Part shown: positions 42,140 through 57,450 of the stretch, piece after piece
Layout of the letters: each line of letters starts with the position of its first letter
Numbering within the stretch: position 1 is the first letter of the stretch
Translations under genes and position numbers: made by a program
From: Escherichia phage vB_Ec-M-J
Length of the DNA: 64,000 nucleotides
Sequence record: OQ718158.1
Direction: 5' to 3' (one strand)
Notes under the pieces: generated by a model
Told to the model about the DNA's origin: nothing
The model's input: only the letters and a program-made list of their open reading frames with translations
Database searches by the model: none

Positions 42140-42146
42140 AAATTTT

Positions 42147-42186: not shown

Positions 42187-42209
42187 GCTAGAAAATACAG
42201 GAGGAAATT

Positions 42210-42776: not shown

Positions 42777-42788
42777 TGAGGAATGAAT

Positions 42789-43304: not shown

Positions 43305-43810
43305 TTTCATTTTTCAAAAAGAAAGAAAAAGTTGATGAAACTGGATTAGAATCGTTTCTATGGACTCTTATCATCAAAAAAAGTCCATTGATAAAAGAAT
43401 ATGCCATCAATGATACTAATAGAAAAACTATCATTGAATACAAATACGAATTAGCAAAATGTGATCCGATTGTTTACCACTTCGTAAAGTACTGTTCTGA
43501 AAATTTATCGGATATCACTATTGAACACGAGTCAGTACCAATGAGTTTTCCTTATGGAGATTGGGTATATACTTATGATATTTTTGATGGGTCTAACGGA
43601 TTCAGTTTTTATTTCACATCAAATAAAGCATATGTTCGAATCAAAACAGATATAGGTTGGGTATTGCATAGCACAAATAAAGAAGATTATAATTTATTAG
43701 CTGATGTATACAGAAGTGTTAAGAACTCAAAGGATATTGATGAAAGAATTAAAAAGCAAAATCGTATTTCTTTATCAATAGAAACATACAAGTCAAAGTA
43801 TGGTGGTTAA
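43301..43810 (+). CDS. small paralog family member 3
   Basis: SPLIKEYAINDTNRKTIIEYKYELAK; ATGA overlap. Confidence 0.5.
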   Translation: MISFFKKKEKVDETGLESFLWTLIIKKSPLIKEYAINDTNRKTIIEYKYELAKCDPIVYHFVKYCSENLSDITIEHESVPMSFPYGDWVYTYDIFDGSNGFSFYFTSNKAYVRIKTDIGWVLHSTNKEDYNLLADVYRSVKNSKDIDERIKKQNRISLSIETYKSKYGG

Positions 43811-43812
43811 CT

Positions 43813-44214
43813 ATGACTACAGTTGATGATATCTACAGTACTATACGAAATATGAGTACAGATAGAAAAGTGTTTGGTGACAAAGAAAAGTCAAAATGTT
43901 ATGGCATCGATTCTTTTGATATTATTTCATACGAATATAATAACAACGGGACCAGTTCACTAAACATTGTGTGTCCACGAGATCCAGAAAATAATTTCAT
44001 GTACGTTGAAATTAACAATGATGGTATGTTCTTTACTAAAGTATATAAAGGTGGGAAAGAATACGAACCCATCGAAGTAATGAATGAAGAGAAATTCTTC
44101 CAAGAAGATACCATCATCAATCTTGGATTTAGTTACAATGACTATCAAGTACTGGATCATGATTTTAAACGATACTATAATGGTTTTCTAAAGGAGTTAA
44201 CGATTTACTTATGA
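43813..44214 (+). CDS. hypothetical protein
   Basis: Track ORF. Confidence 0.5.
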   Translation: MTTVDDIYSTIRNMSTDRKVFGDKEKSKCYGIDSFDIISYEYNNNGTSSLNIVCPRDPENNFMYVEINNDGMFFTKVYKGGKEYEPIEVMNEEKFFQEDTIINLGFSYNDYQVLDHDFKRYYNGFLKELTIYL

Positions 44215-45449: not shown

Positions 45450-45459
45450 GAGGATTGTT

Positions 45460-45876
45460 ATGCTAAACGAACAAATCAAAGACGCACTACGTGTACTGAA
45501 TCGCGAAGTTAACCGCATCCAGAAAAGTACTGATCGTTATAAACTAATGCATGAACTTAGACTTTCGTTGGAAGCTATCAATAATGGCGAATGGTATCTT
45601 GAACCAGAATATCGCACACGTGAACTAACTGACGTTGAAAAAGCAATTGTCAAATTCATTACAAGTCGCGACAAAAATGCATCCGAAAAAGATGTATCAA
45701 TGAACTTCCATCTTACTAAATGTGAAGTCGTGGAAAAATTTAAATTCGATTGGCTTGACTGGATTGAAATGATCATGGAACTTGAAGAAGAATTCAAAGT
45801 TGAAGTTGATTTGGAATACGAGAATGAAAACACTAAACTGTATAAACTCGTAGATCATATTCAAAAAATGTTGTAA
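45460..45876 (+). CDS. ACP-like (acyl-carrier-protein fold) protein lacking the phosphopantetheine-attachment serine
   Basis: C-terminal FDWLDWIEMIMELEEEFKVEVD resembles ACP helix II ([17 protein letters not shown]) with Ser replaced by Trp; ATG 45460 with AGAGGA RBS. Confidence 0.5.
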   Translation: MLNEQIKDALRVLNREVNRIQKSTDRYKLMHELRLSLEAINNGEWYLEPEYRTRELTDVEKAIVKFITSRDKNASEKDVSMNFHLTKCEVVEKFKFDWLDWIEMIMELEEEFKVEVDLEYENENTKLYKLVDHIQKML

Positions 45877-45929
45877 ACATATAATATAGTACACTCTAAA
45901 TAATATTACCAACTATAGGAGATGTTATT

Positions 45930-46304
45930 ATGAGTGTACTAGAAATTATTGTTTCAAAAGTTTTAATACCATATTGGAAACCAATTTTGGTAGTAGGAGT
46001 AATGGCAGGTTGTGTTTACGGTGGATGGTCAGCAAATACTTATTATACTGGTTATAAAGAAAGTATTGACCAAAAAATAGAAAAGAAAGTTGATTCTGCA
46101 CTCGCTAAGATGCAGCAAGAAAATGCAAAAAACTATATAGAAACCAAAAAGATAATGCAAGATAATGCTAAAGTTATCGAGACACAAGTGCCTATTATAG
46201 TAGAAAGAGAAGTTTACAAAAATGTATGTCTAGATGAAGATGGCGTTAAACTTCTGAATGAACTTAAACAGAATTCCCTTGCAGCGAGGAATAAATTCAA
46301 ATGA
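45930..46304 (+). CDS. i-spanin-like (Rz-type) inner-membrane protein
   Basis: N-terminal TM helix then charged coiled-coil-like region; ATGA-coupled to a downstream lipoprotein gene. Confidence 0.55.
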   Translation: MSVLEIIVSKVLIPYWKPILVVGVMAGCVYGGWSANTYYTGYKESIDQKIEKKVDSALAKMQQENAKNYIETKKIMQDNAKVIETQVPIIVEREVYKNVCLDEDGVKLLNELKQNSLAARNKFK

Positions 46305-46615
46305 AATACGCTTTAGTATTTGCAATTTCTTTTCTATTAATTAGTGGTTGTGCTGAAGAAATTAAGTATCAACCTAAACCAATTGTAGAACAAGAAATCT
46401 TACTTGAACGTTGTGACGAAAATACACCACTACCAAGTAAAATCATGGTCGATAAAAACGGGTTCAGAGGATATGATGGTGCTGAAATTCTTGCAGTACT
46501 CGTAAAATGGGATGCAATGTACAATGACTGTGCACTAAAACATGATGCATTAATTAAAACTATTCGTGATTTACAAAATCAAGATGTTAAGGTTAAAATT
46601 AAATCCGAGGATTAA
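46301..46615 (+). CDS. o-spanin-like (Rz1-type) lipoprotein
   Basis: Signal peptide with lipobox LISGC immediately downstream of the i-spanin-like gene. Confidence 0.55.
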   Translation: MKYALVFAISFLLISGCAEEIKYQPKPIVEQEILLERCDENTPLPSKIMVDKNGFRGYDGAEILAVLVKWDAMYNDCALKHDALIKTIRDLQNQDVKVKIKSED

Positions 46616-46617
46616 AA

Positions 46618-47229
46618 ATGTCAAAATATCAGGTCTACTATGTTGCCAAACTATCACTTCTTGATGAGTTAAATCAAAGAAGTACACAGATGAAACGCTA
46701 TACATATAACGGTGTTACTTTCCGATACTTCCCACAAAAAGTACTTACATTCGTTAAGAATTGTAAATGCGTTGCGTGTGGTATTGAAGCTACTGAAGTT
46801 CGCATTGAGCGTTCACATAGCACTGATCCGGTATATGGTAAACCTCACTTAAATGTCTATGCAGTTTGTGGTCTATATGAAGTACTGATGACAGTAGATC
46901 ATAACCAACTAGCATCTAAGGGTGGACCTGATTTAGAGTCAAATTACAACACAATGTGTTCACGTTGTAACAGTCTTCGTTCTAATAAAACTGAATCAGT
47001 AGGTGAATTCCTGGAAAAAGTTAAGGGTAGAAATCTACTGGAAGAGCATATGAATGATTTTTTCAATAAAGATAAGAAGAAATCTAAAACTCCTACTCCA
47101 GAAGAATTGGAAGAACGCCGTTTACGTACAGAACTATGGGAAACCGACCATATATGGCATGTTCGTGATTTTGGACGACATATGAAAGCTCTAAAAAAAG
47201 AACAAAAGAAATTGAATAATCACAATTAA
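46618..47229 (+). CDS. HNH endonuclease (possible free-standing homing endonuclease)
   Basis: HNH signature VDHNQLASKGG...N..CSRCNSLRSNK plus CKCVACG zinc motif. Confidence 0.6.
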   Translation: MSKYQVYYVAKLSLLDELNQRSTQMKRYTYNGVTFRYFPQKVLTFVKNCKCVACGIEATEVRIERSHSTDPVYGKPHLNVYAVCGLYEVLMTVDHNQLASKGGPDLESNYNTMCSRCNSLRSNKTESVGEFLEKVKGRNLLEEHMNDFFNKDKKKSKTPTPEELEERRLRTELWETDHIWHVRDFGRHMKALKKEQKKLNNHN

Positions 47230-47239
47230 TATGTTATGA

Positions 47240-47273
47240 TAGGGACTTGAGAAATCGAGTCCCTATTTTTTTG
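47240..47273 (+). terminator. rho-independent terminator
   Basis: TAGGGACT...AGTCCCTA hairpin followed by TTTTTTT. Confidence 0.75.
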
Positions 47274-47283
47274 GAGAAAATAA

Positions 47284-47640
47284 ATGAAATCTAAAATCTT
47301 TTTACCGCAGTTAATGTGGCATCTGGCAGAGTTAGATGAAGATGATGAATATACTGACTATGGTACATGGGATGACAGTACTGAATCATTCAATCCAGAT
47401 GTTAAGTACAAAATCATTAGTAATGAAAGTAAAGGGTATAGACGATGGACAGAAGAATTTGATCTAGTTTTTCTTGACATGAACACGAACAAATATTATC
47501 ATTGTACGTATGAACGAGGTTTAACAGAAGATAGACCAGCAGAACCATTCAGAAATGAAACTGATGGTGTTAAGTGCTATGAAGTTTCTGTTACCAGAGA
47601 AGAAATTATCACTTATCGAACTTTGTGGAAATATTTGTAA
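47284..47640 (+). CDS. hypothetical protein
   Basis: Track ORF. Confidence 0.5.
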   Translation: MKSKIFLPQLMWHLAELDEDDEYTDYGTWDDSTESFNPDVKYKIISNESKGYRRWTEEFDLVFLDMNTNKYYHCTYERGLTEDRPAEPFRNETDGVKCYEVSVTREEIITYRTLWKYL

Positions 47641-48038
47641 TGCTAAAAGAATTAGATTTTTCAAACTTAGAAATCATCAGTGCTGTTAAAAATATCTCTG
47701 ACTTTGGAGATGAGAAGTCAGTACTGGTAACTGTTACATTCGTCAAAGAACAGGATAGCTATAGCCATTTAGATGGTATTGAAGAACTAATTCACAAGAC
47801 TAATCTACAAAACGATGGTAAACTCATTAAGCTTCAGGCTTCCTATACGCAAAAATCGTCATTTTTTGTAGACCTAAATAATGTAGTCAAGGTGGTATAC
47901 AATCACCCTGAACACAAATACAGGAACACGACAAGAAACGAGAATGATGCTATAGACTCCAATATCAAAGAGGATGTCGAATTCATCAACACAATTTTTG
48001 ACCGTTGTTCCAAGGATTTGAAAAAGGTATACATGTAA
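47625..48038 (+). CDS. hypothetical protein
   Basis: Track ORF; start uncertain. Confidence 0.45.
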   Translation: MEIFVMLKELDFSNLEIISAVKNISDFGDEKSVLVTVTFVKEQDSYSHLDGIEELIHKTNLQNDGKLIKLQASYTQKSSFFVDLNNVVKVVYNHPEHKYRNTTRNENDAIDSNIKEDVEFINTIFDRCSKDLKKVYM

Positions 48039-48039
48039 C

Positions 48040-48067
48040 GGGACATAATACATCCTAGTGATATAAT
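48040..48067 (+). promoter_or_regulatory. sigma70-like promoter, extended -10
   Basis: GGGACA 48040-48045, 16-bp spacer, TGaTATAAT with TATAAT at 48062-48067; fires into a region without a convincing ORF. Confidence 0.55.
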
Positions 48068-48073
48068 GTATAT

Positions 48074-48590
48074 TGTAAAATGACAACGGACATTGAAAAA
48101 TGGATAATGAGAACCTACTTCTCTTGAAAATGTAAAGGATAGATGAGCTTTACCGTTGTAGCGAACAGCAAAAGAAACCTGTTAGAGTACTGGCAATCAA
48201 ACAAACACGAGATAAGACCACGAATCACGGCGACACGGCTGTATAAAGAACTCCAATAAGCACACAGAGAGTTCCTAGATAGATGTATAAGGTTCGCACC
48301 TTACGAATTTGCTAAGGGAGTTCAAGGATTGTGGACGCGATTTTACAAGAAAGTTGCGTCCAAAATTTGAGAACAGGTACTACTTTGATCGAATAGAGTT
48401 TAGTACTGAGTGCTGTTGATGAAAAGACCAGCGACCGTTGCATATGACTGCGATAGAGAGAAACCGAGCAACCCGCTTTCGCTCTCTAAATTTTGGTACA
48501 GGAAAGATCCGTCCAAAATTTGAGAAATTCGCAATTCGATAATATCCGATGCCATCATCGTCAAGAGAGACTTAATTGTCTCTTTTTTAT
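48074..48590 (+). ncRNA. candidate noncoding transcript(s) of unknown class
   Basis: Promoter-to-terminator unit of ~0.5 kb, visibly GC-richer than surroundings, several hairpins, a ~28-bp imperfect direct repeat (48347-48374 and 48503-48530), no plausible ORF. Confidence 0.3.
48564..48590 (+). terminator. rho-independent terminator
   Basis: AGAGAC-TTAATT-GTCTCT followed by TTTTTT. Confidence 0.7.
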
Positions 48591-48728
48591 TACCTTCATT
48601 CCCCTGCGGGGGGATGAAATAGTCCTCAACAAATCCCGTCAAGCTTTTAAAGTACATTATCATTTTCAGAAGGAACTAGTTTACGAAGTAAACGTAGTGA
48701 CTTCTTGAGTTACGAGAGAACGAAGTGA

Positions 48729-49157
48729 ATGAGTAACACAACGAAAATATCCAATACATCTGAATTAACACAAATGTTATTCAAAGAATATTTTGAGTAT
48801 CAAATCAAAAGCGATCATGATTTGGTTCAGACATATTTGAAGAGAATCAAAGATCCATTAAGTTTAAACAAAGGAACTGAATTTTATAACAGTATTTTAG
48901 ACTTTATTAATTTAGTTCATACAAACAGACCTATTGTAGTTTTCTTCTTTGATAAATCAATTCCTGTAGAAGTTCCTGATAATGTATTTTTTGTTACAGA
49001 AACTGATTTAAGTAATCAAAGTACTGTAAGTAGATTAAGGAATTGCTTACTTATAATTTGTGATTCTTCATTATATAACAATAGAGTACTATGGAATAGA
49101 AGTAAGAGAAATGCAGTTTCAGAAATGAATCCTGAAGTTACCTTTATTATTAACTAA
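48729..49157 (+). CDS. hypothetical protein
   Basis: Track ORF. Confidence 0.5.
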   Translation: MSNTTKISNTSELTQMLFKEYFEYQIKSDHDLVQTYLKRIKDPLSLNKGTEFYNSILDFINLVHTNRPIVVFFFDKSIPVEVPDNVFFVTETDLSNQSTVSRLRNCLLIICDSSLYNNRVLWNRSKRNAVSEMNPEVTFIIN

Positions 49158-49187
49158 ATACCATAGAATAACTCTAAGGAGAGATTT

Positions 49188-49628
49188 ATGGAAAATATTA
49201 ATGATTTACGACATGTAATGGACTTTATCGGAGATACTGAAGAAGATAGTTCTTATGATGAAGTACTACTTACATTTATTGAGAATAGTTTATTTTTAAG
49301 TGCTGCTGCTCACAACTGGCATTTACAGAGCCATTTCTACACTAAGCACCTACAATTGGATGAACTATACAAAGAGTTACCTGAGTACGTTGATGCATTT
49401 GTAGAGGGTATTATGAACACTCGCGGGGCATTGCAGGTAGGTACTGGTAACAGTTATCGTTTTACCCCTATCGAGGATTGTGTACCAATTCTTGAAGAAT
49501 ATGTTAGTCAATGTAAAGCCATTCATGCTATGCTAGAAGAGGCTGAAGACTATGGTAGTACTAACACGCTAGAAGACATTATGAGTTTTTGTGAAGGAAT
49601 GCTTTACAAACTTAAAGTTTTACAATAA
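49188..49628 (+). CDS. hypothetical protein (possible Dps/ferritin-like helical bundle)
   Basis: Weak resemblance of AAHNWHLQSHFYTKHLQLDELY to Dps helix motifs; low confidence. Confidence 0.45.
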   Translation: MENINDLRHVMDFIGDTEEDSSYDEVLLTFIENSLFLSAAAHNWHLQSHFYTKHLQLDELYKELPEYVDAFVEGIMNTRGALQVGTGNSYRFTPIEDCVPILEEYVSQCKAIHAMLEEAEDYGSTNTLEDIMSFCEGMLYKLKVLQ

Positions 49629-49635
49629 AATATAT

Positions 49636-49666
49636 GGAGAGTCATTGTGACTCTCCTTTTCTTTTG
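49636..49666 (+). terminator. rho-independent terminator
   Basis: GGAGAGTCA-TTG-TGACTCTCC followed by TTTTCTTTT. Confidence 0.8.
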
Positions 49667-49674
49667 GAGAATAT

Positions 49675-50028
49675 ATGAGTGATTACCGCGTAACATCTGG
49701 ACTAATGGCACGTCTTATTGAAGCAGTTCCTGAAGATGATTATGAAGCTATTTCAGATCGTCTTTTTGACGCAGATTCTAAACTCCATATTACATATGAT
49801 GGTGCATTGATTTACAGTACTGATATTGATATGTCTAGTTATGAATTTGATATTTCTTTTGGTAACAAACTAACTACTGAAGAATTCGCTCGAAAATGTG
49901 AGCGTGAAGGGTTGTGTATTGATATTAGTTCAGTTCAGCCATATACATCACTGTGGTATGATGGTGCTGATAGTCCAATGTCTACTACATCTTTACAGGA
50001 TTTTCTAAATGCAAATCAAAAAGATTAA
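49675..50028 (+). CDS. hypothetical protein
   Basis: Track ORF. Confidence 0.5.
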   Translation: MSDYRVTSGLMARLIEAVPEDDYEAISDRLFDADSKLHITYDGALIYSTDIDMSSYEFDISFGNKLTTEEFARKCEREGLCIDISSVQPYTSLWYDGADSPMSTTSLQDFLNANQKD

Positions 50029-50401
50029 ATTCCACCAGCATTGTTCTATACATGAATGTGATGATTGTGGTATGAACATGAGTGACATTTATACAGTTTC
50101 CTGTAAAGGATTCAAATTCACTCACGGTGAACCTGCATATTGTTATGGCACAGAAGAAGGTGATATCGAAGTAGTTCTGAAAGAATTGTTCCAGTACTTG
50201 CAAAGTGCTGGTCATGATGTTACAATGCCCACATATTACGAAGATGATTATGACTCACATGTAGAAGAAAATACATATTATAATCAATTCGTTCATGGTA
50301 ATGGCTTTATCACATACCTTCATGAGAATGGTATTGAGGTAAAAACTAAGTACACTAGTGATGATTACGAAAGTGATGACTCTATGGAGATTGAAGATTG
50401 A
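50009..50401 (+). CDS. hypothetical acidic protein
   Basis: Track ORF. Confidence 0.45.
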   Translation: MQIKKIKFHQHCSIHECDDCGMNMSDIYTVSCKGFKFTHGEPAYCYGTEEGDIEVVLKELFQYLQSAGHDVTMPTYYEDDYDSHVEENTYYNQFVHGNGFITYLHENGIEVKTKYTSDDYESDDSMEIED

Positions 50402-50985
50402 AAGCAAAAGACCTAGCAGCACTGTTGATGCAGAACCCTGAAATGGAAGTGTATCATGAGCACATGCATATTGATGATATGTGTGAATCGTACTATTCAC
50501 CAGAAAATGTGTCTGGGATTGAAATCACACCAAGTGGTGTATTCATCAGTACTGAACGTATTGATTACAATTCCCAGCAAGAAATCAAAACTCCACATAA
50601 TAAACCTCGCATTGGTGCTATTGAACTTGTATTTCAACAGGATCGTCTGGTTGAGTACAACGAAGACGATGGTACTACCAGAACTGATGTTGAGAATGTT
50701 GTTTTTCCTTTTTATAACGCCTATGATGACCCAACAACAGGTGAAGACTTCTTCCGTGAGTTATCAGAGGATGGTTATGTTTATGGTGAAAATGGAACTA
50801 TTTTTGTACTGGACCCTAATTATGAGCCAGATCACAACACTTGGCAATTCTATACACCTCAAGATGTAATGGAAGTTAAAGTACTTACAGATCTTGACGA
50901 TAATTGGAACCCAGTATATACTTCAATGACATTTGAAGAAGCAAAAAACCATTTCGTTTCTAAACTAAACATTACAAAAGAATAA
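50398..50985 (+). CDS. hypothetical protein
   Basis: Track ORF. Confidence 0.5.
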   Translation: MKAKDLAALLMQNPEMEVYHEHMHIDDMCESYYSPENVSGIEITPSGVFISTERIDYNSQQEIKTPHNKPRIGAIELVFQQDRLVEYNEDDGTTRTDVENVVFPFYNAYDDPTTGEDFFRELSEDGYVYGENGTIFVLDPNYEPDHNTWQFYTPQDVMEVKVLTDLDDNWNPVYTSMTFEEAKNHFVSKLNITKE

Positions 50986-50989
50986 GGAT

Positions 50990-51280
50990 TTGAAATTTAT
51001 GAAAATTGTCGCAAGTGCATGGATGAAACTTACTGATGGTACTACTGCTTTTGAAGAGTATGGCTTTGTTGAAAGTGTAGAAGAATTAAAGCGTTTCAAA
51101 AGTGAAAATGATGATGATGTATTTGACATTGTATTCACCTATCACCATATTCCAAATGATACAGATTATGAACATTATTATTACAATCAAGATCTGTTGG
51201 AAAATCTAGTGTGCGACAATCAACATGAAATTGATGAAAACACTGCTCTACTAATGCTGAGTACCGTATCTCCGGTATAA
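50990..51280 (+). CDS. hypothetical protein
   Basis: Track ORF. Confidence 0.45.
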   Translation: MKFMKIVASAWMKLTDGTTAFEEYGFVESVEELKRFKSENDDDVFDIVFTYHHIPNDTDYEHYYYNQDLLENLVCDNQHEIDENTALLMLSTVSPV

Positions 51281-51288
51281 GGAGTTAT

Positions 51289-51768
51289 ATGTATAACCTT
51301 ACAATTATCCGCGAACCAAATGAATATGACGGTAATACAACCTATGGTGAAGTTTTGGTATTTCAAAGTACTGAACAAAGTGGTATTGAACATAAATTAA
51401 AAGATTATTTACGTGATCATTTATATCTGCACCGTACTGATGCAAATTGTAATTATGGTGATATAATGTTTATTGTAACGCACAATGGTGCGGTAATTGA
51501 ACATATGAACATGACAAATGTAATGGATTTTTATAATTACACTGATACTTCTTTTCCATTGGATAACTATTTCAGTACTGTTTTTGATGCGTTACGTAAG
51601 AACGTTGCTAAAAATGATAGATTCTGTACTAATTTTAGATTATTAGAAACAAATACAAGAAAGAATCTTTCTAAGAAGTATGATGAAGAACATAAGAAAA
51701 ATCAGGAAATTCAACGTTTACATGAGTTAATGAAGAAATATCCCAACGAGGTCAAATATGGCTCTTAG
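51289..51768 (+). CDS. hypothetical protein
   Basis: Track ORF; AAGGAG RBS. Confidence 0.5.
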   Translation: MYNLTIIREPNEYDGNTTYGEVLVFQSTEQSGIEHKLKDYLRDHLYLHRTDANCNYGDIMFIVTHNGAVIEHMNMTNVMDFYNYTDTSFPLDNYFSTVFDALRKNVAKNDRFCTNFRLLETNTRKNLSKKYDEEHKKNQEIQRLHELMKKYPNEVKYGS

Positions 51769-52096
51769 AGGACAAACTCAATATAAGTGTATTGAAGAAA
51801 TCAGAAAGAAAGATGGAACACTTTTTGACAGGAAATTAAAACAAGAATATAAAGACCTAAGAGATGTTATCCGAAATGAAAGTTTCGGTGGGAAGCGTAG
51901 GCAGAAGATTTATGAATTTCTGAAGAATGGTGTAGAAATTCAAGTCAATGGTCTTCATTGTGTACAAACCAAAAACGATCCAGATATTTTACGTCTTTTA
52001 AAAGAGGGTAAAATAGAAATGTTCAATATCCCAATTTCATCCTATGGTAATAGATTAAAATGTAAGCACACGTACTTAAGGATTAAAAATGGGTAA
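51758..52096 (+). CDS. hypothetical protein
   Basis: Track ORF. Confidence 0.45.
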   Translation: MALRGQTQYKCIEEIRKKDGTLFDRKLKQEYKDLRDVIRNESFGGKRRQKIYEFLKNGVEIQVNGLHCVQTKNDPDILRLLKEGKIEMFNIPISSYGNRLKCKHTYLRIKNG

Positions 52097-52673
52097 ATTA
52101 GTATATTACTATGGTAGTATGTCTAGTGGTAAAAGTACTCATCTTTTACAAAAAGCATATAACCATAAGAAAAATGGAATGAAGGTAATTTACTTAACCA
52201 GTGCACTTGATGATCGTTATGGAACAGGAAAGATTACTTCAAGAATTGGCATCGAAGCTGAGGCTGAAGTAATTCCAAAAAATGACATTAGTGTTCTTCT
52301 TAAAGTTAAAGAAACACTCAAAAATGACGTTGACATTAACAGTATCTATGTTGATGAATGTCAATTTTTAAACAGAGAACAAATTGACCATTTAGCTGAT
52401 ATAGCAGATAATTATGGTGTTGATGTTTCCTGTTATGGAATCCGAACAGATTTTGAATCCAATCTTTTTGAAGGTTCACAAAGACTGTTCGAAATAGCTG
52501 ATGACATACATGAACTTAAGAACGTGTGTGAGAATCAGAAGTGTGGCAAAGAAGCCACTATGAATGCCCGTATAGTTGAAAGTACTGATAAAGTCTTTAT
52601 TGGTGGTGATGAATCATACAAGAGTCTATGCAGAACTTGCTATATGGATTATATGAGGAATAAAAATGGTTGA
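52089..52673 (+). CDS. tk: thymidine kinase
   Basis: P-loop GSMSSGKST, VDECQF, GIRTDF..LFEGS, C-terminal Cys pairs, as in T4/E. coli Tdk. Confidence 0.85.
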   Translation: MGKLVYYYGSMSSGKSTHLLQKAYNHKKNGMKVIYLTSALDDRYGTGKITSRIGIEAEAEVIPKNDISVLLKVKETLKNDVDINSIYVDECQFLNREQIDHLADIADNYGVDVSCYGIRTDFESNLFEGSQRLFEIADDIHELKNVCENQKCGKEATMNARIVESTDKVFIGGDESYKSLCRTCYMDYMRNKNG

Positions 52674-52890
52674 TTCATTTATGAAACGCGTTTTGAATGA
52701 TGTACTATCTGGATTTAAAAAAGCGACTAGTCTTATTTTTAGTTCAGTAGTGATGGTTATTACCGTAATGGCATTTGCACTTGTACTGCATTTTGTACCA
52801 TTCTGGTTAGTATTCATTGTACTCATTGTTCTTCTAGGTACGCATGTTTATTATGTTTACCGTGAAGCTTTGGATGATGATAACGTTTAA
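52666..52890 (+). CDS. small membrane protein
   Basis: Two hydrophobic helices. Confidence 0.45.
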   Translation: MVDSFMKRVLNDVLSGFKKATSLIFSSVVMVITVMAFALVLHFVPFWLVFIVLIVLLGTHVYYVYREALDDDNV

Positions 52891-52898
52891 AAGTATTT

Positions 52899-52923
52899 GA
52901 CCTCACTATGTGGGGTCTTTTTA
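52899..52923 (+). terminator. rho-independent terminator
   Basis: GACCTCAC-TAT-GTGGGGTC (one G-U) followed by TTTTT. Confidence 0.65.
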
Positions 52924-52933
52924 AGGTATCTAT

Positions 52934-53377
52934 ATGCATAACGAAACTGAAGTCTTCAAACGTTTCATTGATATTTGTTTACACACGAATTTGGTATATT
53001 TGGGTCCAGGAGCAAACTTCAGAACTTTATCTTCAATTTTAGGATACACTGAACCATCATGCTTATATTGCGATGGGAACATGATCCATCTCACTGATGG
53101 TGATTTTAATGTTCAGTACATTTATCAATGTGATATGTATGTATTCAATACACCAGAATATAATATTATTATTGAAGAACGTACTAAAGATAATTACCCA
53201 ACCCAATATGTAAGTTGGGATAGAACAGATTGCGTATATGCCACTGGTCCAGTACAGAAACCTATGAACTATCCTACTATTCATTTGAATGTTATCCATG
53301 ATGAATTGAAAGATTACTGTAACAGTATTTCAGATTCGGAAACAAAATACTTTCCTATTATATTTTTTAAGGTTTGA
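52934..53377 (+). CDS. hypothetical protein
   Basis: Track ORF. Confidence 0.5.
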   Translation: MHNETEVFKRFIDICLHTNLVYLGPGANFRTLSSILGYTEPSCLYCDGNMIHLTDGDFNVQYIYQCDMYVFNTPEYNIIIEERTKDNYPTQYVSWDRTDCVYATGPVQKPMNYPTIHLNVIHDELKDYCNSISDSETKYFPIIFFKV

Positions 53378-53769
53378 TTATGAGATGGCGTAAACGACAT
53401 GTAACAAGATTTGATAAAATAATCAAAAAATATTTCTCACATAAGTTAGATCCAATCATACTTCAACTAAGAAGTAGTATGTTTGATAGACGTTTCCCAC
53501 AGTGTTTAGAATCGTACAGTCGTAAACGTTACAAGAATGAATACCTGGTATATCGTTATGATTTATCAGAATTCTTTTTGAATACTCGTGTATCTGTACC
53601 CATCAGACTGTACTCAAGGGTAAAACGCAGTAGGGTTCAAGATATCACTTATGGTTATCTTATGCTTGAGATTAATGAACTCAATGAAAAAACAGGTAGA
53701 AATTTCAGTACTTTATGTCTGGAAAACAATGATACCATAAAAAGAATTATAGAAGATTTGGGCAAGTAG
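53374..53769 (+). CDS. hypothetical basic protein
   Basis: Track ORF. Confidence 0.5.
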   Translation: MIMRWRKRHVTRFDKIIKKYFSHKLDPIILQLRSSMFDRRFPQCLESYSRKRYKNEYLVYRYDLSEFFLNTRVSVPIRLYSRVKRSRVQDITYGYLMLEINELNEKTGRNFSTLCLENNDTIKRIIEDLGK

Positions 53770-53786
53770 GATTTTTTATGCTATAA

Positions 53787-54143
53787 TTGGAGATGAGTAT
53801 GAAATACATCGACAAAGGTACAGTTGAAACACAGTACTGGAATATTCATATTGCTGGTGATATCCAAACAGCAAGAGAGTACACAAGAAAGTTTGCATTC
53901 AAGCTTGGATTTTGTGTACAATTGATTCCGTGTGAATACATCTACACGGGTGGTCTTGAAAGTGGAATGTGTGCTCGTATTATTCAGTACCCACGCTTTC
54001 CAAAAGAAGAAGTATATCTCAACCGAGATGTATTAAACTATGCTAAGGGTTTAGCTGAAGAGTTGTGTCAAAAGAGTTTTACTATTGAGCGAAACAATGA
54101 TACAATCTATTATGAAAGTGCCGACCCTTTACACAAGAAATGA
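53787..54143 (+). CDS. hypothetical protein
   Basis: Track ORF. Confidence 0.5.
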   Translation: MEMSMKYIDKGTVETQYWNIHIAGDIQTAREYTRKFAFKLGFCVQLIPCEYIYTGGLESGMCARIIQYPRFPKEEVYLNRDVLNYAKGLAEELCQKSFTIERNNDTIYYESADPLHKK

Positions 54144-54154
54144 AAGGAAAATAT

Positions 54155-54286
54155 ATGAATGGACTAAAAAAGTTTGGTAAAGATTTTCTAAAGTGCATCC
54201 GTTATACATACGATGCTAACCCTGAAATGACCGCCATTGTGGGTGTGTTTATTACACTCGTTGTATTAAGCTTTATTGTGGTGTAA
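54155..54286 (+). CDS. very small membrane protein (43 aa)
   Basis: Own translation MNGLKKFGKDFLKCIRYTYDANPEMTAIVGVFITLVVLSFIVV. Confidence 0.3.
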   Translation: MNGLKKFGKDFLKCIRYTYDANPEMTAIVGVFITLVVLSFIVV

Positions 54287-54289
54287 AAT

Positions 54290-54493
54290 ATGATTGAAAT
54301 TAATGCTGATGTTTATTGTAGTGCATCACCAAACTACTTCATTTATGCACTAAGTACATTTGGTGAAACTGAAGGTGAAACTTTTGTTTTAGTAGATAAT
54401 ACTACATGGTACAAAACAAGTAATAAAATTCCGAAAGATGTTTTAGAAACTTATGTTCGTATTGAAAATAAAAACATATATGTAAATTTATAG
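54290..54493 (+). CDS. hypothetical protein
   Basis: Track ORF. Confidence 0.45.
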   Translation: MIEINADVYCSASPNYFIYALSTFGETEGETFVLVDNTTWYKTSNKIPKDVLETYVRIENKNIYVNL

Positions 54494-54500
54494 GTAAAAT

Positions 54501-54911
54501 ATGATTGAAATGGAAGGAACTCTGGTGTATGATCCAGATCGTGGCACTATGAAAAAGAAGAAGGACTTCTGGTTAGTACTGCAACTTCCATTACAGTTGG
54601 TTCGATACTACCAGTACTTCATCAGAACTGACTTACATATTGATATTAAAGACCCACAATGGGGAGCACATGTCAGTATCGTTCGTGGTGAAGTGCCACC
54701 AAATCCAGAGTACTGGAAAAAGTACGATGGTATGAAAGTTAAGATTAAGTTCGAACCTTTCATCGAAGAAGTAAAAGACAATAAGAAACCTGGGTCATTC
54801 TTTATCATAGAGTTTGAAGATGATTTCATTGCACAAATTCGTGATGAACTTGGTTTAGCATCTAAATATTTCAAATATCACATCACCATTGGTAGAACAT
54901 ACTACGATTAA
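54501..54911 (+). CDS. putative 2H-phosphoesterase (LigT/cyclic-phosphodiesterase-like)
   Basis: Two H-x-[ST]-x motifs (AHVSIV and YHITIG) about 70 aa apart. Confidence 0.4.
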   Translation: MIEMEGTLVYDPDRGTMKKKKDFWLVLQLPLQLVRYYQYFIRTDLHIDIKDPQWGAHVSIVRGEVPPNPEYWKKYDGMKVKIKFEPFIEEVKDNKKPGSFFIIEFEDDFIAQIRDELGLASKYFKYHITIGRTYYD

Positions 54912-54934
54912 TGTGGTTATTTGGTAAATAGGTC

Positions 54935-54962
54935 TTGATATAACTAAAAAGTATGCTATACT
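54935..54962 (+). promoter_or_regulatory. sigma70-like promoter
   Basis: TTGATA 54935-54940, 16-bp spacer, TGcTATACT 54954-54962. Confidence 0.45.
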
Positions 54963-55078
54963 ACTTAAATGTTCCAAAGAACAACTGAGTACTGTAGAAA
55001 GTCCAATGAGGCTTTTGCAAATGGCCTCTTTGCCCTCTTTGTGATTGCTCATTGTTAACAACCAACAAAGGAGGCGTT

Positions 55079-56005
55079 TTGAAAAAAGCGAAAAAAGCAC
55101 TGAAAACTAAAATTGCCGTAGGCGTATTAGTTTCATCAGCCCTATTCGCTGCGATTGGATTTTATGGTTTTTCTCAAAGTGATCGTGCATCATCATTAGA
55201 CGAAAGTCAGGTGCATAATTTAAAACCACAAGTTACGCAAATTCAAAAGCAGGAACTACCACAGGTATCAGTACCAAAAGCAGTTCCAAGCAGCGAGAAA
55301 CATTATACGGTTCAACCTGGAGATAGTTATTATTCTATTGCACAGAAATTTAAACCTAAAAATGTACAGATTGAAGATTATGTCATTTTGTTGAAGAACA
55401 TCAACTTAAATGCAACTCTTCATACTTCTCAGGGTATCTTTATCCCAACAAAAGAGGATTTGAAGAACGTATTGTTACCAGATGTGACTGTACTGTTTGA
55501 TTATAAAGATCCAGAAATTGTCAATCACATCAAAGAAGCTGAAGGTTCTATTGAATTTCAGTCCAAGAACAAACGACGTTTACTTGGTGGGAAAGTTGGA
55601 GTTCCTTTCCACAATTCTAAATTTCATCCCTATAAGGACATGAAAGGTAATTATACAATTGGTTATGGGCATTATTTGGGTAAGAAAGATTCTGATGCAA
55701 TGAAGTACAGAAACGGGATTACCAAAGCACAGGCCAACAAACTTTTAATGCAAGATATGAAAAGGACTTACGAGGACTTTACACTATTGATGCAGAAGAA
55801 AGATGCAGTTAATCTGACAAAAGAACAGCAGCGTATCCTGTTTGAAATGTCATACACAATGGGCGTTGATAAGTTGGCAACATTTAACAAACTATGGAAA
55901 AGTGTTAAAATGGATAACCCTAAGAAATTCAAGAAAGAAATCATGAATTCCTTGTGGTATCGCCAAGTTACAAACAGAGCGGATTTGTTGTTAAGCTCAC
56001 TCTAA
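55079..56005 (+). CDS. T4-type lysozyme (GH24) with N-terminal signal-anchor and LysM domain
   Basis: TTG start after AAAGGAGG RBS; hydrophobic anchor; LysM-like YTVQPGDSYYSIAQKF; C-terminal YTIGYGH..ITK.QA..LL.QD as in T4 lysozyme. Confidence 0.7.
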   Translation: MKKAKKALKTKIAVGVLVSSALFAAIGFYGFSQSDRASSLDESQVHNLKPQVTQIQKQELPQVSVPKAVPSSEKHYTVQPGDSYYSIAQKFKPKNVQIEDYVILLKNINLNATLHTSQGIFIPTKEDLKNVLLPDVTVLFDYKDPEIVNHIKEAEGSIEFQSKNKRRLLGGKVGVPFHNSKFHPYKDMKGNYTIGYGHYLGKKDSDAMKYRNGITKAQANKLLMQDMKRTYEDFTLLMQKKDAVNLTKEQQRILFEMSYTMGVDKLATFNKLWKSVKMDNPKKFKKEIMNSLWYRQVTNRADLLLSSL

Positions 56006-56020
56006 AAAGGTAGGTAAATT

Positions 56021-56353
56021 ATGCTAAATCTAGTTATCCAAGGTAATGTTGATATTACTCCAGCAATCAATGACGCAATTCATGCTGAAGCAAATGCACT
56101 AACGAAGTTTAGTGATTCTTCAGTACTGCATATTGGTGTTCATGTGAAGAAAGAGCATAAGAATCAATATTTCGTAACTTTAACATCAGGCGGTAAGAGT
56201 GTTACAGCCGATGATGCAGATTTATACAAAGCAATTGGTGATTCATTTGAAAAAATGGAAACTGTCTTAGGTAAAGACAAAAGCATCAAATTGCATCGCC
56301 GTAACCACCCCGAACATCCAGTTCAAGAAGACTTGACTGAAGACGAAGAGTAA
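56021..56353 (+). CDS. hpf: ribosome hibernation promoting factor (HPF/YfiA family)
   Basis: Collinear with E. coli HPF (MLNLVIQGNVDITPAINDAI...V.VKKEH...LYKAIGDSFEKME). Confidence 0.75.
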   Translation: MLNLVIQGNVDITPAINDAIHAEANALTKFSDSSVLHIGVHVKKEHKNQYFVTLTSGGKSVTADDADLYKAIGDSFEKMETVLGKDKSIKLHRRNHPEHPVQEDLTEDEE

Positions 56354-56362
56354 GATATAATA

Positions 56363-56392
56363 AAGGGACAGAGATTATTCTGTCCCTTTTCT
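56363..56392 (+). terminator. rho-independent terminator
   Basis: GGGACAGA-GATTAT-TCTGTCCC followed by TTTTCTT. Confidence 0.8.
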
Positions 56393-56407
56393 TATGGGGT
56401 TTTAATT

Positions 56408-56824
56408 ATGAATTATGTTTGGGTAGATGTAGTAAAATCTCTCGTATCAACACATGATGTTGATTTACCAGATAGTCTGGTATTTAACAGATGGTACTAT
56501 CCAAATCCAGAGGACTGTAACGTTGGAATTGGATTTTTTATTAATGATAAATCTAATTTGTTTGGATTAATTGAAGATGAGACAAAATCCAACCTTATAT
56601 TCTCGATTGAGTTGAATGCTGATCACATAAAATACTACACCAATAAAATGGACGAAGACGATGGAGATGTTATAATCCCAGCAGAAATAGACGAAGCTTC
56701 ATTTTTTCAGTTATCATTGATTTATGATCTATCTAACATTAATTATGATAATGTGAAAGACCTTTTTATATTGTACAATAAAATGTATAATTACTTTTTA
56801 AGACCTTTTTATATTGTACAATAA
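56408..56824 (+). CDS. hypothetical protein (3' end lies inside a 43-bp tandem duplication)
   Basis: Track ORF; stop codon falls in the second repeat copy. Confidence 0.5.
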   Translation: MNYVWVDVVKSLVSTHDVDLPDSLVFNRWYYPNPEDCNVGIGFFINDKSNLFGLIEDETKSNLIFSIELNADHIKYYTNKMDEDDGDVIIPAEIDEASFFQLSLIYDLSNINYDNVKDLFILYNKMYNYFLRPFYIVQ

Positions 56825-56842
56825 AATGTATAATTACTTTTT
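56757..56842. repeat. perfect tandem duplication, 2 x 43 bp
   Basis: aagacctttttatattgtacaataaaatgtataattacttttt at 56757-56799 and again at 56800-56842. Confidence 0.9.
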
Positions 56843-56860
56843 TATAACAGAGGAATTGTA

Positions 56861-57046
56861 ATGGAATATACCATATGTGTAATTGTATGTATCATAGCCT
56901 TACTCGCAGGAGTTGGTGTGATGATTTACTGTGATGCGGAACCCAGTACTGAAGTAGGTACAACCATCACACTTAAACCTGGTGTTAAAATTAATGATAC
57001 CTATTGCTACAATCCAAACACAAACCGTTATGAGATTTGTTTATGA
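56861..57046 (+). CDS. small membrane protein
   Basis: N-terminal hydrophobic helix; AGAGGAA RBS. Confidence 0.45.
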   Translation: MEYTICVIVCIIALLAGVGVMIYCDAEPSTEVGTTITLKPGVKINDTYCYNPNTNRYEICL

Positions 57047-57450
57047 AAACATTCAACATTGTTCATATAATTGAACCGATTGCAGAACATATTAAAAACA
57101 TAAGTAAGAACGAGTCAGGTTTTTTCTTCAATTTAGACAAACTTCATCGCTATACCAATGTATCTAGTTTTAATCGTGCTAAGAGACTTTACATCCGTAT
57201 ACACAACCTATGGTACAGTGACGATACGTTGATGATAGATATCACGGTTGGTGAAGAAATAACATTAAGATATATTGACGATTTTAAATCAGATGATATT
57301 CGTGCTGGATCATTACCAATTGATGCTTCATATGAAGAATATCTGCAATACCAGTTCATTGATGACACATTTGGATTTGACTTTGAACTATATAATAGTA
57401 TAATGAACGTATACCATATATACGAAAGGAATTTGAATGGACATTCGTAA
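57037..57450 (+). CDS. hypothetical protein (paralog of 57437..57859)
   Basis: Shared C-terminal motif QFIDDTFGFDF vs MFIDDTFSIDY. Confidence 0.5.
   Translation: MFMKTFNIVHIIEPIAEHIKNISKNESGFFFNLDKLHRYTNVSSFNRAKRLYIRIHNLWYSDDTLMIDITVGEEITLRYIDDFKSDDIRAGSLPIDASYEEYLQYQFIDDTFGFDFELYNSIMNVYHIYERNLNGHS

What the first reader, a model, noticed from the sequence alone, without database searches (positions are those of the whole stretch)
55079..56005. T4-type lysozyme carrying a membrane anchor and a LysM domain, separated from the spanin pair
T4 lysozyme is a soluble cytoplasmic protein, whereas this homolog has an N-terminal hydrophobic anchor and a LysM-like segment. This suggests a signal-anchor-release type endolysin or a virion-associated peptidoglycan hydrolase. 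The Rz/Rz1-like spanin pair lies about 9 kb upstream (45930..46615), and no obvious holin was seen in the window.
Basis: partly seen in the sequence, partly recalled or inferred. Interest (0 to 1): 0.4.

Follow-up and report, generated by a model that had tools for sequence, protein, structure and literature searches.

The report
Membrane-anchored LysM lysozyme of jumbo coliphage
This gene of a RaK2-like jumbo E. coli phage encodes a T4-type lysozyme with a membrane anchor and a LysM wall-binding domain; it is probably the phage's exported lysis enzyme, and this protein family was already described in 2017.

Summary
ORF 55079..56005 (+, TTG start, 308 aa) encodes a Lys-rich N-terminus, one hydrophobic segment (residues 12-31), a Q/P-rich linker, a LysM domain (75-123) and a GH24 T4-type lysozyme domain (145-306). 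E155, D187 and T193 are invariant in 58 homologues. An Rz/Rz1-type spanin pair lies at 45930..46615, and the window has no holin homologue.

The window is an Asteriusvirus (99.5% identical to phage BF17). This architecture, and the "endolysin, perhaps signal-arrest-release" reading, were published in 2017 for the orthologue CBB_187, naming 121Q gp532, GAP32 gp180 and RaK2 gp506. The finding is therefore already known.

The virion-enzyme alternative is disfavoured: phAPEC6 Gp293 was not detected by virion mass spectrometry.

A strict SAR mechanism is doubtful, for four reasons:
- the anchor lies 113 residues from the catalytic domain;
- the protein has no cysteine;
- the family's anchor is Leu-rich;
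- syntenic distant orthologues carry a 47-95-residue cytoplasmic domain before the anchor.

The best reading is a Sec-exported, inner-membrane-tethered endolysin that is the positional counterpart of T4 gene e.

A side finding appears to be new. A single-copy leader RNA motif at 54994..55028 is conserved across the clade, shows compensatory base changes and has no Rfam match.

The parts
55079..56005 (+). CDS, 308 aa, TTG start: the membrane-anchored LysM/GH24 lysozyme. It is the orthologue of phAPEC6 gp293c, 121Q gp532, CBB_187, GAP32_180 and RaK2 gp506 ('e').
55079..55111 (+). Residues 1-11, MKKAKKALKTK: Lys-rich cytoplasmic N-terminus (6 basic, 0 acidic residues).
   Evidence: the positive-inside rule is established knowledge
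55112..55171 (+). Residues 12-31, IAVGVLVSSALFAAIGFYGF: the single hydrophobic segment, read as a signal anchor.
   Evidence: KD 1.99 and conservation in 58 homologues. Not modelled by AlphaFold (pLDDT below 40).
55172..55300 (+). Residues 32-74: Ser/Gln/Pro-rich linker, predicted disordered, containing the conserved IQKQ motif.
55301..55447 (+). Residues 75-123: LysM domain (beta-alpha-alpha-beta) with a roughly 7-residue insertion (KPxNVxxxxY) between its two helices.
55511..55996 (+). Residues 145-306: GH24 T4-type lysozyme domain. Catalytic-triad equivalents are E155 (55541-55543), D187 (55637-55639) and T193 (55655-55657). E and D are 32 positions apart, against 9 in T4 lysozyme.
55067..55074 (+). 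Shine-Dalgarno AAAGGAGG. The AGGAG core is invariant in all 16 orthologous leaders.
54994..55028 (+). Conserved, single-copy leader RNA motif. Helix S1 pairs 54994-55000 with 55013-55018. Helix S2 pairs 55008-55011 with 55025-55028. The two helices could form an H-type pseudoknot, or two mutually exclusive hairpins.
   Evidence: no Rfam match
54935..54962 (+). Sigma-70-like promoter candidate: TTGATA, 16-nt spacer, TATACT, with TG at -15/-14.
   Evidence: The number of such sites in the region is at chance level. Equivalent sites lie in the same place in EJP2 (TTGACA-17-TAGACT) and RaK2 (TTGACA-17-TAAAAT).
45930..46304 (+). i-spanin (Rz-like): N-terminal transmembrane segment plus a coiled-coil region.
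   Evidence: phrog_1152, 1.2e-27
46301..46615 (+). o-spanin (Rz1-like lipoprotein) with lipobox LISGC. It overlaps the i-spanin gene by 4 nt.

Best explanation
The gene encodes the exported endolysin of this RaK2-like jumbo phage.

Proposed mechanism:
1. The Lys-rich N-terminus and the single hydrophobic helix direct Sec-dependent insertion with the N-terminus in the cytoplasm. The rest of the protein lies in the periplasm, tethered to the inner membrane.
2. A flexible linker of about 43 residues and the LysM domain carry the catalytically competent GH24 muramidase domain to the peptidoglycan.
3. The enzyme reaches its substrate without a holin hole. Lysis timing must then come from control of its synthesis (weak TTG start, structured conserved leader) and/or from activation on membrane depolarisation by a separately encoded holin. 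The spanin pair at 45930..46615 then disrupts the outer membrane.

Shown: the domain architecture, the conserved catalytic residues, the conserved anchor, conserved synteny, and absence from virion proteomes of relatives.
Inferred: topology, endolysin role, tethered versus released state, and timing.
For: Architecture and catalytic residues.

Distribution: the family occurs in 70 phage records, all RaK2-like jumbo phages among those listed. Each genome listed has three GH24 places: this gene, a 162-aa soluble lysozyme, and an 887-aa baseplate-hub lysozyme.

Not a virion protein: phAPEC6 Gp293 was not detected by MS. CBB_187 is absent from the CBB virion table.

[quoted passage not shown] This is expected for an exported active muramidase.

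Position: the gene sits in the conserved block 2H-phosphoesterase, lysozyme, HPF, CCA-adding enzyme, NudE, glutaredoxin. In RaK2 that neighbourhood also holds tk, tk.4 and an rI.-1-like gene. In T4, gene e lies directly beside nudE in the tk, tk.4, rI region. RaK2's annotators named the gene 'e'.

Other lysis genes are present but scattered, as in T4. Spanins are in the window. A T-holin-like 220-aa protein with one transmembrane segment lies 128 kb away in fEgEco12.

Anchor rather than SAR.
Against: No experiment shows muralytic activity, topology or a lysis role for any member of this family.

The same genomes encode a soluble 162-aa T4-type lysozyme. Its UE-S1 orthologue, LysUE1, is muralytic in vitro (PMC12805682) and was not detected in CBB virions. 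It is an equally conventional endolysin candidate for a T-type holin.

The gene lies among nucleotide/tRNA-metabolism genes. In three lineages it is preceded by sigma-70-like promoters, and TATAAATA is absent from the whole window. These hint at early or middle rather than late transcription.

A tethered enzyme with a long linker has no obvious restraint before lysis time.

No TMHMM, DeepTMHMM or SignalP run was possible here. A cleavable signal peptide is not excluded for this particular protein.
Confidence: 0.5

Rival explanations
1. It is a true signal-arrest-release (SAR) endolysin. The N-terminal helix first tethers an inactive enzyme. It leaves the bilayer when a holin or pinholin collapses the membrane potential, releasing active soluble enzyme. 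This is the reading of the first reader and of the CBB paper.
For: There is an N-terminal transmembrane segment on a GH24 enzyme, as in P1 Lyz and R21. In this particular protein the segment is fairly rich in Gly/Ala/Ser/Thr (0.47) with a borderline insertion energy (dG about +1.1). Expression of CBB_187 is toxic.
Against: The anchor is separated from the catalytic domain by a disordered linker and a LysM domain (113 residues). Neither known SAR control could operate as described: refolding of the SAR helix into the catalytic domain as in R21, or disulfide isomerisation as in P1 Lyz. The protein has no Cys.

The family-mean anchor is Leu-rich: LIVFMW 0.58 and GAST 0.35, against about 0.37-0.42 and 0.53-0.63 for the P1 Lyz and R21 sequences recalled from memory.

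Six Lys residues would have to cross the membrane.

Syntenic orthologues P0071, P0072, P0075 and P0077 have a conserved 47-95-residue cytoplasmic domain before the anchor, which cannot plausibly be pulled through the membrane.

There is no adjacent pinholin.
Confidence: 0.2
2. It is not the main endolysin. It is an accessory periplasmic peptidoglycan hydrolase made early or mid-infection, for example for local wall remodelling or to act on superinfecting phage entry. The soluble 162-aa lysozyme plus the T-like holin would then carry out lysis.
For: A complete conventional set exists elsewhere in related genomes: a soluble GH24, a T-like holin candidate and spanins. Sigma-70-like promoters lie upstream in the window, EJP2 and RaK2. 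The late-promoter-like TATAAATA motif is absent from the window. The neighbours are metabolic or host-takeover genes: an Acb1-like 2H phosphoesterase, HPF and NudE.
Against: T4 gene e also lies among early genes and is transcribed early. The 162-aa lysozyme sits inside the baseplate module, between a gp25-like gene and the gp5-like hub gene, and may be an assembly or virion factor. An active exported muramidase made early would be expected to be lethal. The weak start codons and structured leader suggest its synthesis is restrained rather than early and abundant.
Confidence: 0.2
3. It is a virion-associated hydrolase used for cell-wall penetration at infection.
For: [quoted passage not shown] Some GenBank records label it as a tail lysozyme.
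Against: That match only reflects paralogy with the C-terminal lysozyme domain of the 887-aa hub protein (28% identity). The protein was not detected in phAPEC6 virions and is absent from the CBB virion table. It has an export anchor and no virion-attachment module. The gene lies outside the structural modules.
Confidence: 0.05
4. The N-terminal segment is a cleavable Sec signal peptide, so the mature protein is a free periplasmic LysM-lysozyme. This would resemble the secreted endolysin Lys44 of phage fOg44.
For: The N-terminus has an n-region, then an h-region, then polar residues. Small residues fit the -3/-1 rule at GFS|Q and SQS|D in this protein (sequence). One distant relative, P0073, has a typical short signal peptide.
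Against: The hydrophobic stretch of about 20 residues is long for a signal peptide. The putative cleavage motifs are not conserved in the family. Orthologues with an internal anchor cannot use it as a signal peptide. No predictor could be run.
Confidence: 0.1

Closest known systems
CBB_187 of Pectobacterium phage vB_PcaM_CBB and its named homologues 121Q gp532, GAP32 gp180 and RaK2 gp506 (Buttimer et al. 2017, PMC5259590)
   Same: Same protein family and the same three-part architecture: N-terminal transmembrane segment, weak LysM, C-terminal lysozyme. The tblastn place in 121Q, annotated '532: LysM peptidoglycan-binding domain-containing protein', is 91% identical to the window protein. The same prediction was made: endolysin, possibly SAR.
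   Different: Nothing essential. This is another member in an Asteriusvirus related to BF17 (99.7% identical protein).
T4 lysozyme (gpe), GH24
   Same: Same fold (Foldseek TM 0.65-0.68, about 25% identity). Same Glu/Asp/Thr triad and the YTIGYGH motif. The genomic position is next to nudE and near tk.
   Different: T4 gpe is a 164-aa soluble cytoplasmic protein that needs holin T. This protein has an anchor, a linker and a LysM domain. It also has an insertion of about 23 residues between the catalytic Glu and Asp. A shorter version of that insertion (13 residues) is present in the phage's two GH24 paralogues.
SAR endolysins P1 Lyz, phage 21 R21 and phiKMV gp45
   Same: They are GH24-type muramidases with an N-terminal transmembrane segment that gives holin-independent, Sec-dependent export.
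   Different: In those enzymes the SAR helix directly abuts the catalytic domain, takes part in its regulation, and is Gly/Ala-rich. Here it is 113 residues away, the protein has no Cys, a LysM domain intervenes, and orthologues have a cytoplasmic domain before the helix.
Modular Gram-negative phage endolysins with a wall-binding domain (phiKZ KZ144, EL188)
   Same: A peptidoglycan-binding module is fused N-terminally to a catalytic module in a jumbo-phage enzyme.
   Different: Per the CBB paper, their cell-binding domains differ from those of the RaK2-like phages. From my own knowledge, not tested here, those enzymes use a PG_binding_1 domain, are soluble, and their catalytic domain is a lytic transglycosylase type.
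T4 gene 32 mRNA leader pseudoknot and the T4 gene e leader hairpin (comparison for the leader RNA only; recalled knowledge)
   Same: A structured element sits tens of nucleotides upstream of the ribosome-binding site of a T4-related phage gene whose synthesis must be controlled.
   Different: There is no sequence similarity. Sequestration of the Shine-Dalgarno site, as in T4 e, is not supported for this window. The binding partner, if any, is unknown.

Membership tests
GH24 / Pfam PF00959 Phage_lysozyme (T4-type) | Profile match above the curated cut-off | tested here: met
   44.5 bits against a cut-off of 22.3, E = 2.3e-11, residues 182-288
GH24 / Pfam PF00959 Phage_lysozyme (T4-type) | T4-lysozyme fold | tested here: met
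   The AlphaFold model has pLDDT 82-95 over 145-306. Foldseek against T4L structures gives E about 5e-7 and TM (target-normalised) 0.65-0.68.
GH24 / Pfam PF00959 Phage_lysozyme (T4-type) | Catalytic Glu, Asp and Thr (T4L E11, D20, T26) | tested here: met
   E155, D187 and T193 are invariant in 58 sequences. D187 and T193 align to T4L D20 and T26 by BLASTP and HMMER. E155 is assigned from the EG motif and the end of helix A; it was not superposed in 3D.
GH24 / Pfam PF00959 Phage_lysozyme (T4-type) | Canonical spacing: Glu, 8 residues, Asp/Cys, 5 residues, Thr | tested here: not met
   There are 31 residues between Glu and Asp (21 in the two paralogues). The Asp-5-Thr spacing is kept.
GH24 / Pfam PF00959 Phage_lysozyme (T4-type) | Muramidase activity | not testable with these tools
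   There is only the unpublished toxicity of CBB_187.
LysM domain (PF01476) | Profile match above the cut-off and a beta-alpha-alpha-beta fold | tested here: met
   22.3 bits against 20.9, partial match. 23 of 27 family segments match. The family profile hits solved LysM domains down to 9.5e-10. The model has strand 75-77, helices 84-91 and 98-108, and strand 119-121.
SAR (signal-arrest-release) endolysin | N-terminal transmembrane segment on a muralytic enzyme | tested here: met
SAR (signal-arrest-release) endolysin | Weakly hydrophobic, Gly/Ala/Ser-rich helix able to leave the bilayer | tested here: inconclusive
   This protein: GAST 0.47, LIVFMW 0.47, dG +1.1. Family mean: GAST 0.35, LIVFMW 0.58, dG 0.18.
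SAR (signal-arrest-release) endolysin | The SAR helix adjoins the catalytic domain and regulates it, by refolding or by a Cys switch | tested here: not met
   113 residues, including a LysM domain, lie between them. The protein has no cysteine.
SAR (signal-arrest-release) endolysin | Short N-terminus that can follow the helix into the periplasm | tested here: inconclusive
   This protein has 11 residues, 6 of them Lys. Syntenic orthologues have 47-95 conserved residues before the helix.
SAR (signal-arrest-release) endolysin | Release from the membrane on depolarisation | not testable with these tools
   This needs fractionation with and without an uncoupler.
Virion-associated (tail or internal) lysozyme | Presence in purified virions, or fusion to a virion structural module | tested here: not met
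   phAPEC6 Gp293 was not detected by MS. It is not in the CBB virion table. No OB-fold or beta-helix domain was found.
Clustered holin-endolysin-spanin lysis cassette | Adjacency of a holin and spanins to the endolysin gene | tested here: not met
   The spanins are 8.5 kb upstream. No holin homologue is in the window. The T-like candidate is 128 kb away in fEgEco12.
Any Rfam family (for the leader motif) | Covariance-model match | tested here: not met
   No match near any gathering score in the window leader. No match at gathering threshold in 14 orthologous loci.

The most novel reading that the evidence does not exclude
The enzyme is a permanently inner-membrane-tethered endolysin, not a SAR endolysin, that works through a long linker and a LysM domain. 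Its synthesis is gated by the clade-specific leader RNA pseudoknot or switch together with a weak TTG/GTG start. That would be a mode of endolysin control distinct from both holin-released soluble enzymes and SAR enzymes, and it would be shared by RaK2-like jumbo phages.
Probability: 0.15. Interest if true: 0.55.

Novelty: already known. Interest (0 to 1): 0.25.

Why it matters
How jumbo phages time lysis is poorly understood. RaK2-like phages encode three GH24 paralogues, and the literature disagrees on which is the endolysin. The CBB paper names the anchored LysM protein; the UE-S1 paper characterises the soluble 162-aa enzyme.

If the anchored enzyme is the lysis enzyme and stays tethered, that would extend the known range of endolysin export and control. 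It would also make the soluble part (LysM plus GH24) a natural wall-binding enzybiotic scaffold for Gram-negative bacteria.

The leader RNA motif is the only element that appears undescribed.

Tried and rejected
1. A T4-e-like hairpin hiding the ribosome-binding site. The CCUCUUUG / CAAAGGAGG complementarity looked suggestive. However, the leader's minimum free energy is not unusual (z = -0.71). The probability that the SD is unpaired in the window is 0.28, against 0.25 in shuffles. Only some GAP32/BF-type leaders show extra sequestration. Rejected for this window.

2. T4-type late promoter. TATAAATA does not occur anywhere in the window, and neither ATAAATA nor TGAAACG lies in the gene's upstream region. 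No late promoter could be assigned.

3. Generic sigma-70 and terminator scan. The number of promoter-like sites is at chance level (28 against 26.0 +/- 4.6). Only positional recurrence in EJP2 and RaK2 gives the site at 54935..54962 some weight.

4. The conserved box as a repeated promoter. The 12-mer is unique in the window, and matches with up to 2 mismatches are at chance level. It is single-copy in the genomes searched. An exact 14-mer scan of viral contigs mostly returned matches on contigs unrelated to this clade, which I took for chance matches and did not use.

5. Rfam search of the leader and of 14 orthologous loci: nothing.

No holin family was found.

7. Disulfide caging as in P1 Lyz: impossible, because the protein has no cysteine.

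8. The first version of the shuffle test timed out and was rerun.
Full report
**Identity of the window**

The region 54500..56400 is 99.5% identical to Escherichia phage BF17 (Asteriusvirus, 383 kb). It is 87-99% identical to about 30 other Asteriusvirus genomes, including phAPEC6, 121Q, PBECO4 and fEgEco12. Window coordinate x corresponds to BF17 coordinate x + 67966. The ORF in question is annotated 'lysozyme' in BF17 and phAPEC6 (gp293c), 'endolysin' in Turkey3, and 'LysM peptidoglycan-binding domain-containing protein' in 121Q.

**Checking the observation**

*Start site.* The ORF 55079..56005 (+) is real.
- The start is TTG at 55079, 4 nt after GGAGG.
- In 16 diverged orthologous loci the AGGAG box is invariant. 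The start is TTG, GTG or, in RaK2, ATG.
- N-terminal residues are conserved at the protein level.

*Hydrophobic segment.* There is one such segment, residues 12-31.
- Its Kyte-Doolittle mean is 1.99, with a summed Hessa dG of about +1.1.
- It is preceded by MKKAKKALKTK (six Lys, no acidic residue) and followed by an acidic, Ser-rich stretch. The predicted topology is N-in/C-out.
- Every one of 58 homologues has such a segment.
- TMHMM results reported by others agree.

*LysM.* The segment is a genuine LysM domain. The evidence is Pfam above its cut-off, 23 of 27 family segments matching, profile hits to solved LysM domains, and a confident beta-alpha-alpha-beta model.

*Lysozyme domain.* The C-terminal domain is a T4-lysozyme fold. 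E155, D187 and T193 are invariant.
- The family has a conserved insertion between the catalytic Glu and Asp. They are 32 positions apart, against 9 in T4L.
- A shorter version of this insertion occurs in the phage's two other GH24 proteins.

*Lysis context.*
- The spanin pair at 45930..46615 is confirmed.
- No holin homologue is in the window.

**What is already known**

Buttimer et al. 2017 (PMC5259590) described CBB_187, with homologues GAP32 gp180, 121Q gp532 and RaK2 gp506.
- They called it the predicted endolysin, with an N-terminal transmembrane domain, a weak LysM-like wall-binding domain and a C-terminal lysozyme domain.
- They compared the transmembrane domain with the SAR endolysins P1 Lyz and phiKMV gp45.
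- They noted that induction is toxic to E. coli (data not shown).

The RaK2 paper lists three lysozymes: ORF029, which by position is this family (RaK2 gene 'e' at 13.7 kb), ORF073 and ORF078.

No experimental study of this family turned up in the searches.

**Distribution and paralogues**

- tblastn finds the full-length architecture in 70 phage records. All that were listed are RaK2-like jumbo phages: Asteriusvirus, RaK2/K64-1, GAP32, Serratia BF, Yersinia fHe-Yen9-04, Salmonella 7t3/SE_PL and EJP2. Each listed genome has three GH24 places.
- In 121Q the other two are an 887-aa gp5-like hub protein with a C-terminal lysozyme domain, and a 162-aa soluble lysozyme immediately downstream of it, next to a gp25-like gene.
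- The 162-aa enzyme's UE-S1 orthologue, LysUE1, is muralytic in vitro (PMC12805682).
- The window protein is 35% identical to the 162-aa enzyme and 28% identical to the hub domain.

**Virion enzyme or endolysin?**

- CBB_187 is not in the CBB structural-protein table.
- The protein has no virion module.
- The PHROG 'tail lysozyme' match only reflects paralogy.

A virion role is unlikely.

**Position in the genome**

- The order Acb1-like 2H phosphoesterase, lysozyme, HPF (S30AE), then CCA-adding enzyme, NudE and glutaredoxin is conserved across most of the clade. It holds even in distant metagenomic relatives.
- In RaK2 the neighbourhood also includes tk and tk.4. The RaK2 paper also reports an rI.-1-like ORF015.
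- In T4, gene e lies directly next to nudE, within the tk, tk.4, rI.-1 region.

The same gene set co-localises in both phages, although in a different order. This makes the gene the likely positional counterpart of T4 e, and it is my main argument for an endolysin role. As in T4, the other lysis genes are scattered.
- The spanins are 8.5 kb upstream.
- A T-holin-like 220-aa protein with one transmembrane segment and a large periplasmic domain lies 128 kb away in fEgEco12. Its support is weak: phrog_860 'holin' at 7e-4; HHpred probability 89.9 to PDB 6PX4_B, labelled 'Holin; phage, lysis inhibition' in the authors' supplement; BLASTP against T4 T at 0.014.

**SAR or stable anchor?**

Four observations argue against a classical SAR mechanism.
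1. The helix is separated from the catalytic domain by a segment AlphaFold treats as disordered (residues 1-72, pLDDT below 40) and by a LysM domain. It cannot regulate the active site in the way the R21 SAR helix does.
2. The protein has no cysteine, so a P1-Lyz-type disulfide switch is impossible.
3. Across the family the helix is Leu-rich (consensus LVGFLLLAAAIGF). LIVFMW is 0.58 and GAST 0.35. This window's protein is intermediate, at 0.47 and 0.47.
4. More distant orthologues (P0071, P0072, P0075, P0077; 31-38% identical) keep the lysozyme-HPF synteny. They carry a 47-95-residue N-terminal extension before the helix, which shows sequence similarity among P0072, P0075 and P0077. Such a helix is an internal signal anchor. 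It can be neither a cleaved signal peptide nor a helix that slips into the periplasm.

I therefore favour a stable type II anchor, with SAR-like release as a weaker alternative. A cleaved signal peptide cannot be excluded for this protein, because no predictor was available.

How a tethered enzyme with a long linker is kept harmless until lysis is not explained. Control of synthesis, or dependence on membrane energisation, are inferences.

**Expression signals**

- The 167-nt upstream spacer holds a sigma-70-like site, TTGATA-16-TATACT with an extended -10 TG. The count of such sites in the region is at chance level.
- Equivalent strong sites do occur at the same place in EJP2 and RaK2. GAP32/BF-type phages lack them, because there the gene abuts the upstream ORF.
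- TATAAATA is absent from the entire 64-kb window, against 10.35 +/- 3.18 expected. The CBB paper predicts ATAAATA late promoters upstream of structural genes in this clade.
- No transcriptome for a RaK2-like phage was found.

Timing therefore remains open.

**A conserved leader RNA motif (side finding)**

- The intergenic DNA has otherwise diverged, yet all orthologous leaders share GUAGAAAGUCC...G.G.CUUUGUGC, 80-101 nt upstream of the start codon.
- The motif is unique in the window. It has one place per record in all listed genomes but one, and in every orthologous locus I examined it lies just upstream of this gene.
- It has no Rfam match.
- Two helices fit it. S1 pairs GUAGAAA with UUU(G)UGC. 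S2 pairs GAGG with CCUC downstream.
- On a 14-sequence alignment, 97.8% of cells form standard pairs. Partners slid by 1-3 columns give 26-58%.
- The covariation score is 0.245, against 0.120 in shuffles (0 of 500 reach it).
- S2 shows A-U, C-G and U-A at one position and G-C and A-U at another. S1 has one compensatory change, in RaK2.
- S1's 3' strand lies in the loop of S2. The motif is therefore either an H-type pseudoknot or a pair of mutually exclusive hairpins; RNAalifold alone predicts a longer S1 hairpin.
- An additional upstream hairpin has unrelated sequences in different clades.

Caveats: the structure was derived from these same sequences, and they fall into only three or four clades. 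The independent compensatory events are therefore few. The motif's function is unknown. A role in controlling synthesis of a dangerous exported enzyme is speculation.

**Verdict**

It is an already described family of anchored LysM-GH24 lysozymes in RaK2-like jumbo phages, and its role is still untested. The SAR label commonly attached to it is probably too specific. The virion alternative is unlikely. The finding itself deserves a low interest score. The leader RNA motif and the evidence for a stable anchor are modest additions that could be tested directly.

Noticed in passing
window 54994..55028 (+); also L002, L007, L009, L132-L146 upstream of the orthologous genes: A conserved, single-copy leader RNA motif lies 80-101 nt upstream of the lysozyme start codon. 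It has two helices with compensatory changes (candidate pseudoknot or switch). It has no Rfam match and was not mentioned in the papers read.
   Followed up: partly
whole window 1..64000: The T4 late-promoter octamer TATAAATA occurs 0 times on either strand, against 10.35 +/- 3.18 expected from shuffles. This could reflect counter-selection of a functional late-promoter motif in a region of early or middle genes.
   Followed up: no
window 54501..54911 (+): The gene immediately upstream encodes a 136-aa 2H phosphoesterase (Pfam 2H-SAK, 5.9e-5, below the cut-off). The fEgEco12 authors' HHpred table links its orthologue to the anti-CBASS nuclease Acb1 (PDB 7T26, probability 97.6).
   Followed up: partly
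window 56021..56353 (+): The gene immediately downstream encodes a ribosome hibernation factor homologue (HPF/RaiA type; Pfam Ribosomal_S30AE, 3.1e-10). It is linked to the lysozyme gene in most relatives examined, including distant metagenomic ones; RaK2 was not checked and P0077-type contigs lack the Pfam hit.
   Followed up: partly
window 55079; orthologous starts in L002-L146: The start codon of this gene is non-ATG in 15 of the 16 distinct orthologous leaders examined: TTG in Asteriusvirus and GAP32/BF-type phages, GTG in the EJP2 and 7t3 types, and ATG only in RaK2. This is consistent with deliberately weak translation of a toxic product.
   Followed up: partly
window 52666..52890 (+) and 54140..54286 (+): Two small conserved membrane proteins lie near the lysozyme gene. 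One is a 74-aa protein with two transmembrane segments and an acidic, charged C-terminus; it is holin-like in form (phrog_22328, unknown function). The other is a 48-aa tail-anchored protein; a 46-aa ORF at a similar position is annotated 'membrane protein' in GAP32. Neither matches a holin family.
   Followed up: partly
L006 2676..4015 (fEgEco12 g404-g406; outside the window): The T-holin-like 220-aa protein g406 is followed by two small genes, g405 and g404. They match the N- and C-terminal halves of a single PHROG (phrog_21209). g405 resembles the N-terminal part of g406, including a transmembrane segment. They may be a split paralogue or an antiholin.
   Followed up: partly
P0071, P0072, P0075, P0077 (loci L166-L171): Distant orthologues of the lysozyme carry an extra 47-95-residue N-terminal domain, predicted cytoplasmic, ahead of the anchor. 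P0072, P0075 and P0077 show sequence similarity in it. Its function is unknown.
   Followed up: partly
window 28564..28743 and 28747..28980 (+): Two adjacent small ORFs have lipoprotein-like signal sequences, ending in VLSC and LVTGC. One belongs to phrog_22308 (unknown function).
   Followed up: no
window 45421..45876 and 46618..47229 (+): The spanin pair is flanked by an acyl-carrier-protein-like gene (phrog_5934, 3.9e-8) and by a 203-aa gene that is annotated as an HNH endonuclease in phAPEC6. It is not flanked by lysis genes.
   Followed up: no
P0011: One homologue is recorded as 'hypothetical protein [Escherichia coli O157]' on a 352-kb contig. This is probably a jumbo-phage genome deposited within a bacterial assembly.
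   Followed up: no
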